Below are positions 18,441-27,144 of a stretch of 64,000 nt of DNA, piece by piece. Location of the stretch: the NCBI GenBank assembly GCA_951406725.2, contig OX597843.1, positions 9,238,001 through 9,302,000 on the forward strand, given 5' to 3'. Each line of letters begins with the position of its first letter. Positions within the stretch are counted from its first letter, which is position 1. The notes under the pieces were generated by a model that worked only from the letters and a program-made list of their open reading frames with translations, had not been told where the DNA came from and did not search any database. Source of the DNA: Octopus vulgaris. Its lineage: Eukaryota. The translations under genes and the position numbers were made by a program.

Positions 18441-18560
18441 CCTATATATATATATATATATATATATATATATATATATATATATATATATATATATATA
18501 TATATATGAAAAAACAAGTCAAAAATAGAAAATGCTAAAATAATTTTATAGTGAACATTT

Positions 18561-18598
18561 CAGTACCGGTTTCGGTCATTTTGAGACCTTTTCAACAG
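18561..18598 (-). ncRNA. Minimal hammerhead ribozyme, U3-A8 variant with a stem I mismatch
   Basis: ctg TTGAAAA ggtc-tcaaaat-gacc GAAA ccgg TA ctg. Confidence 0.6.
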
Positions 18599-19373
18599 TA
18601 ACGATTAAATAATTAAATTTAGAAAAATTAGAAGAAAAGTTTTTTTAAAAGAATATTTCTATAGTAGTGTTCAGATCTAAGTGGCATTCTGCCTTTCTCT
18701 GACTCCCTTTTTTGCACTTGTGTGTTGGAGGTCGTTGTGAGTTCTTGGTAGGGTAGTAGAGGAAGAAGACTGGTGAGGAAAGGGGGTGGGAGAATCTGGG
18801 AGTGCCCTGATGGTCGTATTTTGAATGGTCAGTGGCGGCTGGCAGTCTCAGTTCAATTCAGGAGAATATTTATATTGACAGGCTTGTTTATAGAATTTAC
18901 GTAGGTGTTATATTAAAAGACATTAGTGACAAAGTTAAGGGGTAGGAGGTGGAGAAGTAGAAGAAGAAGAAGAAGAAGAAGAAGAAGAAGAAGGAGAAGA
19001 AGAAGAAGAAGAAGAAGAAGAAGAAGAAGAAGAAGGAGAAGAAGAAGAAGATGACGATGTTGATGATGATGATGATGAAGAAGAAGAAGAAGAAGAAGAA
19101 GAAGGAGAAGGAGAAGATGATGGTGATGGTGATGGTGGTGATGATTATGACGACGATGATGATGATAATGATGATGATGAAGAAGAAGAGGAAGAAGAAG
19201 AAGAAAAAAACAGAGAAGGGAGAATATGAATGGGTTAAAGTAGTGAGGTGTTGTATGACTTGAAGTTGGTATGTTATGGATTATAGCTGTGATTTTAGCT
19301 GTGATTAGTAATGGATTCTTTGGAATGTAATATTTGTGTGTGAATATTTCTTTTATTCTAAAGTTGAGGTATA

Positions 19374-21699
19374 TTAATTGTTTGTCGTAGACCCGTTAAG
19401 AAGTGGCCTGTATTTTGCAATAAAGAGAGTTTCTTTACTTATTCGTTGTCTCGAGGTTGTATCGTCCCTAAATTGGTAGAGGGGGAAAATCCTGAAGCTT
19501 GGTGTTTTTTTGTTGGCGCAAGTATCTATGTGTTGGCTAAAAGCTATTTTTCTGTTTTGGGGAATTTTTATCTGGGATCTGTGCAGGGCCATTCGTTTAC
19601 GCAAACTATTTTTTGTTTGGCCTATGTACTGCTCTTGACACCCGGAGCAGGTTAGTGAGTATATTAGGTTCTCCGAAGCACATGTGAAGTTGCTTTTCAC
19701 TGTAAACCGTTGTCCCTGTTTGAAGGAGAACTCTGATCCCTCAATTAGATAGTCGCATATCCCGCAATTGGGTCTTCCACATTTTTTTACTGTCGGCTTC
19801 TGTGTTGAAGAGTGAATTCGGGCTTGTGTTAGGAGACTTTTCATGGATTTAGGCTGTCTCTTGCTTTTTATGATCGTGTGTGTTTGGAGGATTGTGTTCA
19901 TTCTGTGGTCTTTTTTTAGGAGGGGTATGTTGTGGAGGATGGTGCCGAAGGCTTCGTTATTGAGAGGGTTGTGTGTGGAGATGTATGGTAAGGCTTTTGG
20001 TTGTAAGTTTTTCTTTGATTTGGGATGTCTCAGTTCCTTGATGTTAAGTTGAAGGGCACGTTGAATGCACTTGTCAATAAGTGAAGGTGGATAGTTCCTG
20101 GTGATAAGGGTATCTTTTAGTTCTTGTAGTCGTGTGTCTCTGGTGTTTGCGTTCGAGACTATAGTGCATATCCTTTTTGCTAGGTTGGAGGGGATATTCA
20201 TCCTGGTGTGTCTGGGGTGGCATGAATTGAATGGAAGATATTGCTTAGAGTCTGTAGGCTTATAATATATGTCTGTTTCTATTATATTATTAGCTTTCTT
20301 AACGAGGATATCGAGGAAGGGGAGTTGTTGCTGGCTATATTCCATCGTGAATTGGATGTTTACGTCCAGTCCGTTTAAAATTTCCTGGAATTCTATGAGT
20401 TTTTCTATATTTTTATGCCAAAGGATGAAACAGTCATCTAGATATCTCTTCCAGTTGTTTTCTATGTAGATGGAGAAAGGGCTGCCATATCTTTCTAGAA
20501 CCTTACGATACAGACTGATCTCTAGATATCCTATGACTAGGTTGGCAAAGGAGGGGGGCCATTCGTGTACCCATCGCAGTCCCCGATTTTTGTCGGTAGA
20601 AGTTGTCATTGAAGGCGAAGAAGTTATTTTCCAGGATGAATTTAACCCCTTCTATCACGAATTCTTTTTTGATGCGATGTGGTAGTTCGTTGGCGTGATT
20701 TTCTAGCCAGAATTGGATTGCCTCTAGTCCTAGGTTGTGGGGGATATTGGAGTAGAGGTTGACTACATCGAAGGATACCAGTATGGTGTTTTTGTTTATA
20801 GTATTCGGTAGGTGATTGAGCATATCTAAGTCGTCCCTTATATAGCTTTTGACATGTTTTAGGAGTGGTTTTAACAGGGTGTCTAAAAAGTTACTGAGGC
20901 GGTGAGTTTCGCATGCGGGACCTGCTATTATGGGTCTCAATTTGAGGTCATTAGGATTAGGGACTTTAATTATTTTGTCTGTAGCTATCTTGCATTCGTT
21001 GCTTATTTTCTCACTTTTGTGGATCTTAGGTATACCGTAGAATTGGCTGGTTTTGCTTGTGAAATTGGTCATATAATCATATTCTTTGTCGGTGAGCCCT
21101 GCTTTGTATGGGTTTAATATGGATTTTAGTTCCCTCATTATTTTTTGTTGACTGTAGTTTTGTGCCTTTTCATAGTATGTTGTGTCTTCCAGCATAGAAA
21201 GTACCAAAGTTATGTAAAATGTCGTATCCATTAAGACAACAGCACTCCCTTTATCGGTCTCTTTGATTGTTATTGTTTTATCTAGTTTTAATTTGTTCAA
21301 CTCAGCCCATTCTTTTTTGCTGAAGTTTGGTTTGTGTTTTTGTTTGTGCATATGTTGATATGGGTAATTTGATATGTGGTCACAGAAATCATCAAGTGTT
21401 TTGTTCTTACCTTTCGAGGGGGTGTAGTTACTCCTATTTCTGGCTAACGATTCGTCCTCGTTGTATTTATCGTATAGCTCCTCAGTAAGTCTTAATTTTC
21501 TGCAAAGTTCTGCGATGTCTTCTTTCATTTCATTGTAGTTGGGGTGTTGTGGGGTGGGTGTAAACTTGAGTCCTTTGGAAAGTATGTTTATTTGGTTTGC
21601 TGTTAGTTCCTTGTGAGTTAGATTAATAATTTTTATTACTTTTGGTTCCTCCTGCTTGTTTGGTGCTATCTTGTGTCTCTGTGTTTGCGTATTGGGTCT
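19374..21699 (-). pseudogene. Penelope RT + GIY-YIG endonuclease, one +1 frameshift
   Basis: DKG, FYGIPKIHK, LRPII, SFDVVNLY, GTAMG, RYLDD, CGRPNCGIC and NLIYSLTCSGCQEQYIGQT motifs. Extra G in the run at ~20553-20558. Confidence 0.92.
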
Positions 21700-26084: not shown

Positions 26085-26903
26085 TATACCTCAACTTTAG
26101 AATAAAAGAAATATTCACACACAAATATTACATTCCAAAGAATCCATTACTAATCACAGCTAAAATCACAGCTATAATCCATAACATACCAACTTCAAGT
26201 CATACAACACCTCACTACTTTAACCCATTCATATTCTCCCTTCTCTGTTTTTTTCTTCTTCTTCTTCCTCTTCTTCTTCATCATCATCATTATCATCATC
26301 ATCGTCGTCATAATCATCACCACCATCACCATCACCATCATCTTCTCCTTCTCCTTCTTCTTCTTCTTCTTCTTCTTCTTCTTCTTCTTCATCATCATCA
26401 TCATCAACATCGTCATCTTCTTCTTCTTCTCCTTCTTCTTCTTCTTCTTCTTCTTCTTCTTCTTCTTCTTCTTCTTCTTCTTCTTCTTCTTCTTCTTCTT
26501 CTTCTCTTCTTCTTCTTCTTCTTCTTCTTCTTCTTCTTCTTCTACTTCTCCACCTCCTACCCCTTAACTTTGTCACTAATGTCTTTTAGTATAACACCTA
26601 CGCAAATTCTATAAACAAGCCTGTCAATATAAATATTCTCCTGAATTGAACTGAGACTGCCAGCCGCCACTGACCATTCAAAATACGACCATCAGGGCAC
26701 TCCCAGATTCTCCCACCCCCTTTCCTCACCAGTCTTCTTCCTCTACTACCCTACCAAGAACTCACAACGACCTCCAACACACAGGTGCAAACAAGGGAGT
26801 CAGAGAAAGGCAGAATGCCACTTAAATCTGAACACTACTATAGAAATATTCTTTTAAAAAAACTTTTCTTCTAATTTTTCTAAATTTAATTATTTAATCG
26901 TTA

Positions 26904-26941
26904 CAGTTGAAAAGGTCTCAAAATGACCGAAACCGGTACTG
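26904..26941 (+). ncRNA. Minimal type I hammerhead ribozyme, U3-A8 core variant
   Basis: cag TTGAAAA ggtc-tcaaaat-gacc GAAA ccgg TA ctg. Stem I 3 bp, stem II 4 bp, palindromic accggt stem III. Predicted cleavage after A26938. Confidence 0.75.
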
Positions 26942-27144
26942 AAATGTTCACTATAAAATTATTTTAGCATTTTCTATTTTTGACTTGTTTTTTCATATAT
27001 ATCAACTCGTGTGTTCCTTTTACATATATATATATATATATATATATATATATATATATATATATATATATATATATATATATATATATATATATATATA
27101 TATATATATATATATACATATACATATATATATATGAGTATACA

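What the first reader, a model, noticed from the sequence alone, without database searches (positions are those of the whole stretch)
18508..27021. 8.5 kb quasi-palindrome: two near-complete Penelope copies head-to-head from one template
Seen: ~4 kb inverted arms around a ~500 bp spacer (22481-22975, the 5' part of the plus copy), with (TA)n outside both ends. Both arms share the RT C6 frameshift and the ORF1 break and differ only at scattered sites (e.g. P/L, S/F, Q/H, R/K). Established: Penelope insertions often carry an inverted partial pLTR. Unusual here is that the inverted part spans the whole RT-EN. Inference: one integration event primed at both ends of a break from the same defective RNA, mobilised in trans. 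Read-through would give a 4 kb dsRNA hairpin (siRNA/ADAR substrate), and the DNA could extrude a cruciform.
Basis: partly seen in the sequence, partly recalled or inferred. Interest (0 to 1): 0.7.

Follow-up and report, generated by a model that had tools for sequence, protein, structure and literature searches.

The report
Long head-to-head Penelope retrotransposon insertion
This 8.5-kb mirror repeat is a long example of a layout found at about half of this jumping-gene family's insertion sites, likely made in one event by copying the element's RNA into both ends of a DNA cut, and the damage its two arms share may have been copied from arm to arm afterwards rather than inherited from a broken template.

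Summary
The palindrome is real in the assembly: arms 18508-22480 and 22976-27021, a 495-bp spacer, (TA)n outside both ends, 13 substitutions and 4 indels between arms. It is not exceptional. 26 of 56 family loci sampled are head-to-head, and two other loci have arms as long (one 4.05 kb with no spacer). Reviews already describe the inverted 5'-truncated copy. In 38 of 38 resolved head-to-head insertions exactly one outer end carries the tail, and the tailed arm is longer in only 20 of 38. This supports two independent primings at the two ends of one break and argues against fold-back copying or chimeric reads. The arms share two +1 frameshifts and 9-11 substitutions. No source copy was found, the subfamily is star-like, and arm-shared variants unique to one locus recur at 3 of 3 other palindromes tested. 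'Defective RNA mobilised in trans' is therefore unproven; later arm-to-arm conversion fits at least as well (about 50% versus 30%). Part of the 'ORF1 break' is the family's conserved -1 overlap with an in-phase UUUUUUA, not damage. Reads could not test the junction. The scan noted the one-tail rule and the frameshift site before, on other DNA of this genome.

The parts
18443..18507 (.). (TA)n target tract, left
18508..22480 (-). Left arm: inverted, 5'-truncated copy (element positions 496 to the untailed 3' end); no tail
18545..18609 (-). Hammerhead-like motif of the left arm; a private change at 18597 breaks a predicted stem pair
   Evidence: position mapped; no Rfam match on this arm
19374..21729 (-). 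ORF2 (RT plus C-terminal GIY-YIG) of the left arm, split by the G6/C6 frameshift at 20553-20558
21666..22480 (-). 3' part of ORF1 in the left arm, with the shared +1 at 21941-21944
22481..22494 (+). Junction: one unassigned A, then the last 13 nt of an upstream pLTR
22481..22975 (+). Spacer, 495 bp: 5' part of the plus copy including the ORF1 start (ATG 22554)
22554..23790 (+). ORF1 (411 aa in the natural copy L095); broken here by +1 at 23512-23515
23751..23757 (+). In-phase T TTT TTA in the -1 overlap of ORF1 and ORF2; candidate ribosomal frameshift site, family-wide
23727..26084 (+). ORF2 (RT, CX4CX2C linker, GIY-YIG; 784 codons in L095); broken here by C6 at 24898-24903 and +1 at 25966 and 26033
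22976..27002 (+). Right arm, paired with the left arm
26240..26549 (+). (CTT/CAT)n tract in the 3' region; 9- and 35-nt length differences from the left arm (18953-19207)
26893..26957 (+). Hammerhead-like motif in the 3' pLTR region
   Evidence: weak Rfam match RF02275, 19.7 bits, E 0.65, below gathering score; two stems predicted
27003..27021 (+). Tail, present on this arm only; shorter than the usual tail of the family
27024..27135 (.). (TA)n target tract, right

Best explanation
This is a dead head-to-head insertion of an endonuclease-bearing Penelope-like retrotransposon at the long end of a layout seen at about half of its family's loci, likely made in one event when both cut ends of a (TA)n tract primed reverse transcription. 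Shown: geometry, one tail per insertion, arm lengths that vary independently of the tail, (TA)n at both ends. Inferred: the endonuclease cut both strands; one end primed at the ATAT at the element's 3' end and the other at the ATAT some 20-35 nt further on (the tail); the two cDNAs stopped at different points and were joined end to end; here both ran unusually far. The plus copy is longer than one unit, so its template likely held two pLTR-ORF junctions (tandem transcript or circle). The frameshifts and substitutions common to both arms most likely arose after insertion and were copied from arm to arm by gene conversion (about 50%); a dead source copied in trans is the main rival (about 30%).
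For: One tail in 38 of 38 resolved head-to-head insertions (37 without the duplicate L087; 41 junctions examined), tailed arm longer in 20 of 38, and 29 of 41 junctions overlap by 1-13 nt. In L080, L086, L115 and others the short arm carries a tail absent from the long arm, so it cannot be a DNA copy of it. 26 of 56 loci on two contigs are head-to-head; shorter arm 114-2607 bp, median 982. Near-complete sisters: L124 4055/4066 bp, L123 3853/4699, L120 3503/3582. A purified Penelope protein cleaves and extends both strands, starts at two adjacent RNA sites that bound the tail, and is predicted to dimerise (PMC11167929). For conversion: 6 of 6 arm-shared variants tested, at 4 of 4 palindromes, have no matching source copy; subfamily B has 212 singleton and 17 shared variants in 27 loci; arm-shared variants are 14 synonymous to 26 non-synonymous, like arm-specific ones (12 to 26) and unlike fixed subfamily differences (19 to 5, p 0.0008); arm differences pile up outside the microsatellite here (6 of 13 in 405 of 3468 sites, p 0.012) and in L111 (12 of 12, p 7e-6).
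Against: No read spans were seen for the junction. The in-vitro work is on a Poseidon-clade element, not this one. Against conversion: pooled over 21 loci with both regions there is no inner/outer bias of shared versus arm-specific variants (p 0.52; without this locus and L111 p 0.16, trend reversed); rank test within this locus p 0.064; L107 (8 shared, 0 different) and L124 (3 and 0) are uniform to the outer ends; a variant in L095 is shared by three pieces; tandem pieces also share variants (7 to 18 against 58 to 78, p 0.19); shared variants show C>T 15 against G>A 3 on the sense strand (p 0.013, uncorrected), which hints at a template-stage origin. A source copy may simply be absent from this one assembly.
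Confidence: 0.72

Rival explanations
1. Same two-ended event, but the shared lesions came from an already dead source copy whose RNA was copied in trans.
For: Both arms carry two frameshifts and 9-11 substitutions absent from the panel. Total private load per arm (0.32-0.41%) equals that of other subfamily-B copies, as both models predict. Sense-strand C>T excess and three-piece sharing in L095 hint at template origin. In-trans action by a Penelope ORF is reported in rotifers (PMC3846280, passage).
Against: No source copy for 6 of 6 variants at 4 loci. Star-like subfamily with one plausible source-daughter pair in 27 loci. Fixed differences 19 of 24 synonymous suggest that functional copies propagate themselves. 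Would have to be the rule, since 58 shared variants occur over 46 palindromes.
Confidence: 0.3
2. The second arm was copied from the first at the DNA level by fold-back self-priming of the cDNA.
For: Would explain shared lesions directly. Self-priming was proposed for head-to-head Penelope junctions (PMC3846280, passage). L124 has a 13-nt palindromic centre.
Against: Predicts that the tailed arm is always the longer; it is so in 20 of 38. It cannot be excluded for this locus alone, where the tailed arm is the longer.
Confidence: 0.08
3. Assembly artefact: a fold-back chimeric read, or polishing that homogenised the arms.
For: Both shared frameshifts and both right-arm insertions are +1 in short runs; single-base indels recur across copies; L124 has several arm-specific indels. 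No independent junction read.
Against: Symmetry stops at the element's own 3' ends with different flanks beyond; the ends are asymmetric in the family-typical way; the arms differ at 13 substitutions; only 3 of 283 RT-motif copies have C6.
Confidence: 0.07
4. Two independent insertions that landed next to each other.
For: Happens in this family: L085 is two adjacent insertions with 46 differences between them.
Against: No (TA)n at the centre; arms share lesions unique in the genome; one-tail pattern holds.
Confidence: 0.03

Closest known systems
EN+ Penelope-like element insertions with an adjacent inverted 5'-truncated copy and one-sided tail (Craig et al. 2021, PMC8557442; passages seen)
   Same: RT with C-terminal GIY-YIG, partial tandem, inverted 5'-truncated copy at the 5' end, tail at one end, (TA)n targets, CX2-5CxxC linker as in Neptune/Nematis.
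   Different: The inverted copy is near full length; the passages seen give no arm-length distribution. Two ORFs with a -1 overlap, whereas the abstract describes a single ORF for canonical EN+ elements (the Fig. 1 legend mentions an ORF1 separated by a frameshift without naming the clade in the text seen).
Penelope elements of Adineta vaga (Arkhipova et al. 2013, PMC3846280; passages seen)
   Same: Head-to-head inverted repeats are called the most frequent arrangement; optional tail on one inverted pLTR; long tandem/inverted structures hinder assembly.
   Different: That paper favours self-priming; the tail-versus-length data here favour two independent primings. Target duplications cannot be read here because of (TA)n.
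PAc, Poseidon of Anolis carolinensis (Frangieh et al. 2024, PMC11167929; parts 1-2 of 4 of the main text read)
   Same: Both strands cleaved and extended, AT-rich targets, two adjacent RT start sites that bound the tail, hammerhead in the pLTR.
   Different: Other clade, single ORF; start sites there are not homologous to the target, whereas both ends here join (TA)n through ATAT.
Arm-to-arm gene conversion in sex-chromosome palindromes (recalled; search listing only)
   Same: Arms more alike than their age predicts, sharing new mutations.
   Different: Those are large segmental palindromes; here 0.1-4 kb arms made by retrotransposition, and conversion is inferred, not shown.

Membership tests
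EN+ Penelope-like element | Reverse transcriptase domain | tested here: met
   Pfam RVT_1 E 9e-4 on the N-terminal fragment, below the curated cut-off; DVVNLY and YLDD motifs in the translation (motif names recalled)
EN+ Penelope-like element | C-terminal GIY-YIG endonuclease with CCHH motif | tested here: met
   Pfam GIY-YIG 22.9 bits, cut-off 22.6; two Cys and two His seen in the translation
EN+ Penelope-like element | pLTR, partial tandem or inverted layout, optional tail | tested here: met
EN+ Penelope-like element | Hammerhead motif in the pLTR | tested here: inconclusive
   Rfam HH9 E 0.65, below gathering score; core read by eye as a U3-A8 variant (recalled); cleavage not testable
EN+ Penelope-like element | Single ORF | tested here: not met
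   Copies with uninterrupted frames have ORF1 plus a 784-codon ORF2 in the -1 frame; the same in two sister families. It is therefore filed as a two-ORF Penelope-like element, not a canonical single-ORF one.
Neptune clade | CX2-5CxxC linker before the endonuclease (shared with Nematis) | tested here: met
   CGRPNCGIC; definition from PMC8557442 passage
Neptune clade | (TA)n target bias | tested here: met
   most outer ends run into (TA)n
Neptune clade | RT phylogeny places it with Neptune rather than Nematis | not tested
   no named reference proteins were retrieved; 'Neptune-type' is a lead only
Palindrome under arm-to-arm gene conversion | New mutations shared by both arms and absent elsewhere | tested here: met
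Palindrome under arm-to-arm gene conversion | Converted and unconverted alleles in the population, or clear tracts | tested here: inconclusive
   clustering suggestive here and in L111, absent when pooled; population data not available

The most novel reading that the evidence does not exclude
Penelope two-ended insertion seeds this genome with well over a hundred palindromes of graded arm length (0.1-4 kb) and spacer, and their arms then evolve in concert by gene conversion, fixing even lethal lesions in both arms. The set would be a ready-made series for measuring palindrome conversion against arm length, spacer and age outside sex chromosomes, and an in-genome record of two-ended priming.
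Probability: 0.45. Interest if true: 0.55.

Novelty: new member of a known kind. Interest (0 to 1): 0.3.

Why it matters
The locus itself is a dead, long example of a described layout. Its value is as one of a countable series. The one-tail rule with independent arm lengths is genomic support for priming at both ends of a break, a step of Penelope transposition that the in-vitro paper leaves open. If the arm-shared mutations come from conversion, shared lesions in retroelement palindromes cannot be read as proof of trans-mobilisation, and arm divergence underestimates insertion age. If they come from dead templates, trans-mobilisation is common in this family. Either answer is testable with population long reads.

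Tried and rejected
Junction test with public runs: two raw-read runs laid 0 reads at 100% likeness, and the two contig sets listed no piece or joint at 22480 (16 of 586 pieces shown); no test. No RNA holder is on record. Four runs guessed to be RNA showed only family alleles at this locus's private sites in the rows shown; other samples and contigs that drop rare variants, so no evidence on expression of this locus. Rfam gave only (TA)n artefacts and one sub-threshold hammerhead. No solved structure matched ORF2; ORF1 has no significant Pfam match. One pattern search was mistyped and is void. An intron as the ORF1-ORF2 link: no joints in 4 of 4 runs, with contigs crossing the boundary in 3; not supported, though RNA status is a guess. 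No stable hairpin is predicted after the slippery site. A-to-I editing of the template as source of shared variants: A>G 11 of 65 against 74 of 583, not enriched. Target-site duplication: unreadable in (TA)n. Rows dropped: L087 (duplicate of L086) and L089 (diverged) from the panels; L139 and the cross-insertion pairs of L085; L085 cross pairs and L139 from the tandem tally. The script missed L077 and L103, head-to-head by eye (28 of 56). PMC6431247 and bioRxiv 10.64898/2026.07.22.740005 (passages) added nothing on long inverted arms. Five paper searches listed no paper on arm-length distributions or conversion in Penelope palindromes; most subscription journals are not covered and no supplements were read, so either could be in print.
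Full report
Observation. The inverted repeat is there as described: 22976-27080 matches 22480-18443 at 98.05%. The arms differ at 13 substitutions, two single-base insertions in the right arm and two microsatellite lengths. The spacer is 495 bp, (TA)n tracts lie outside both ends, and the four amino-acid differences named are correct. The right copy begins with 13 nt of an upstream pLTR end and finishes with a 19-nt tail; the left copy begins at element position 496 and ends without a tail. 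Symmetry stops at the element's own ends: beyond lie an old, 32-36% similar Penelope fragment on the left and common repeats on the right.

Identity. The coding region gives a weak RT match and a GIY-YIG match above cut-off, with a CX4CX2C linker before the endonuclease, which PMC8557442 (passages) assigns to Neptune and Nematis. Clade placement by tree was not done. A hammerhead-like motif in the 3' region scores below Rfam's threshold. The window lies on contig C30 of a 2.8-Gb genome; earlier scan notes call the organism an octopus, which I did not test.

How unusual. An exact RT motif occurs 280 times, plus 3 times in the C6 form. In the 100 of 280 places listed (92 loci), 7 are minus-plus pairs (one later proved to be two insertions), 1 is tandem and none is tail-to-tail. 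I fetched all 56 motif-bearing loci of contigs C1 and C2: 26 are head-to-head by script (28 by eye), with the shorter arm from 114 to 2607 bp, median 982. This sample is conditional on one arm reaching the RT motif. A motif near the 5' end occurs 67 times in 59 loci, and 3 loci have it on both arms: this one, L123 (3853/4699 bp) and L124 (4055/4066 bp, no spacer). L120 has 3503/3582 bp. A rough independence estimate predicts about 0.9 such loci (P of 3 or more 0.06; the 0.9 is my hand estimate). Among 20 loci of two sister families, 4 show inverted arms of 2.0-2.7 kb within the fetched stretch. The locus is the long tail of a continuum. [quoted passage not shown]

Mechanism. Of 41 head-to-head junctions, 38 have both outer ends resolved, and all 38 have exactly one tail; the tailed arm is the longer in 20. 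Where the short arm bears a tail that the long arm lacks, it cannot be a DNA copy of the long arm, so fold-back copying fails as the general route. Both end types join (TA)n through ATAT, and 29 of 41 centres overlap by 1-13 nt. A purified Penelope protein cleaves and extends both strands from two adjacent RNA sites that bound the tail (PMC11167929, parts 1-2 of 4). I infer two primings at the two ends of one break, with the cDNAs joined at their truncation points. The right copy exceeds one unit, as do L095, L117, L122 and two tandem trimers on C9, so the template likely was a tandem transcript or a circle.

Shared lesions. The arms share two +1 frameshifts and 11 substitutions absent from up to 28 other hits; 9 substitutions stay private in a larger panel. 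Exact searches for three of the lesions find only the two arms, plus one copy with C6 that is 5.9% diverged and lacks the two other shared variants it covers. This is a family-wide trait: 58 shared against 78 arm-specific private variants over 46 palindromes. One shared variant each from L120, L124 and L107 is likewise confined to the two arms; that of L120 changes a catalytic Asp codon of YLDD. Subfamily B, to which this locus belongs, is star-like: 212 singletons, 16 doubletons, 1 fourfold variant in 27 loci. Shared variants are not enriched for synonymous change (14 to 26) while fixed subfamily differences are (19 to 5; p 0.0008). Arm differences cluster beyond the microsatellite here and in L111. 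These points favour mutation after insertion followed by arm-to-arm conversion. Against it: no pooled inner/outer bias (p 0.52 over 21 loci), uniform sharing in L107 and L124, three-piece sharing in L095, similar sharing in tandem pieces (p 0.19) and a sense-strand C>T excess (15 to 3, p 0.013 uncorrected). The subfamily-A panel covers only 44 loci, so some 'private' calls there may have unsampled carriers, and a source may be missing from one assembly. My weights for the origin of the shared lesions: conversion 0.5, dead template in trans 0.3, assembly or copying error 0.2.

The ORF1 break. Copies with uninterrupted frames (for example L095, L104, L123) have an ORF1 of about 411 aa and a 784-codon ORF2 overlapping in the -1 frame, with T TTT TTA in ORF1 phase 30 nt before the stop. 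Two sister families (ORF1 44-47%, ORF2 67-72% identical) keep the -1 overlap and the heptamer in 15 of the 16 loci where the overlap was resolved, of 20 fetched. Contigs of runs guessed to be RNA cross the boundary without a joint. A -1 ribosomal frameshift is likely; no downstream hairpin is predicted. Only the +1 at 23512-23515 is damage.

Consequences. With 13 nt of upstream pLTR the plus copy likely lacks its promoter, which the papers place in the pLTR, and both 3' pLTRs face outward; a 4-kb hairpin RNA would need outside read-through or antisense pLTR activity (inferred). No host exon was recognised in the window's ORF list, but intron status was not tested. A cruciform is unlikely across 495 bp (recalled); L124 is the better candidate. 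Reads gave no test of the junction.

Verdict. Real, ordinary in kind, long in degree: a new member of a known kind. I reached the head-to-head census, the one-tail pattern and the slippery site before opening the scan's notes, which record the last two on other DNA of this genome; those notes are unchecked and add no support. Interest 0.3.

Noticed in passing
window 23727-23790; L095, L178-L197: Family-wide two-ORF layout with an in-phase T TTT TTA in a -1 overlap, conserved in two sister families (30 or 60 nt before the ORF1 stop); candidate programmed frameshift. L119 has a +1 in the T run and one 886-codon frame.
   Followed up: partly
L124:910-9017 (G000:C19, about 8.349-8.357 Mb): 8.1-kb palindrome of the same family with no spacer, arms 4055/4066 bp, no substitution between arms, several arm-specific indels; better cruciform candidate than this locus.
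   Followed up: partly
L120:1134-8229 (G000:C3): 3.5-kb arms that both carry a change of the first Asp codon of YLDD, found nowhere else in the genome.
   Followed up: partly
L111:551-4503 (G000:C2): Arms identical over 988 inner sites but different at 12 of 398 sites beyond the microsatellite.
   Followed up: partly
G000:C9:10675021-10683899 and C9:55714353-55723188: Tandem trimers of near-full-length units about 4.4 kb apart; fit a multimeric or circular template.
   Followed up: no
L085:1158-9046 (G000:C1): Two head-to-head insertions side by side, the second next to the tail (TA)n of the first; each obeys the one-tail rule.
   Followed up: partly
window 17700-18349: Old, diverged Penelope-like endonuclease fragment on the minus strand (32-36% identity to ORF2), just outside the left (TA)n.
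   Followed up: partly
window 47-8898 and 28416-40230: Duplicated block (91-97% identity) built of tandem units of about 2.5 kb, on either side of the palindrome.
   Followed up: no
window 61024-64000: Another inverted repeat (92.9% over 2994 columns) around a long (AAT/ATT)n centre, running to the window end; the arms look like 3' parts of a non-LTR element (recognised by eye).
   Followed up: no
window 56416-60243: Uninterrupted 1275-codon frame that looks like a non-LTR retrotransposon RT with a C-terminal nuclease; related fragments at 52471-54185 and 60826-61827, flanked by long (AAT)n arrays (labels by eye).
   Followed up: no
window 15029-16139 and 45393-46637: Tc1-like transposase and RTE-like RT fragments (labels by eye, no call).
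   Followed up: no
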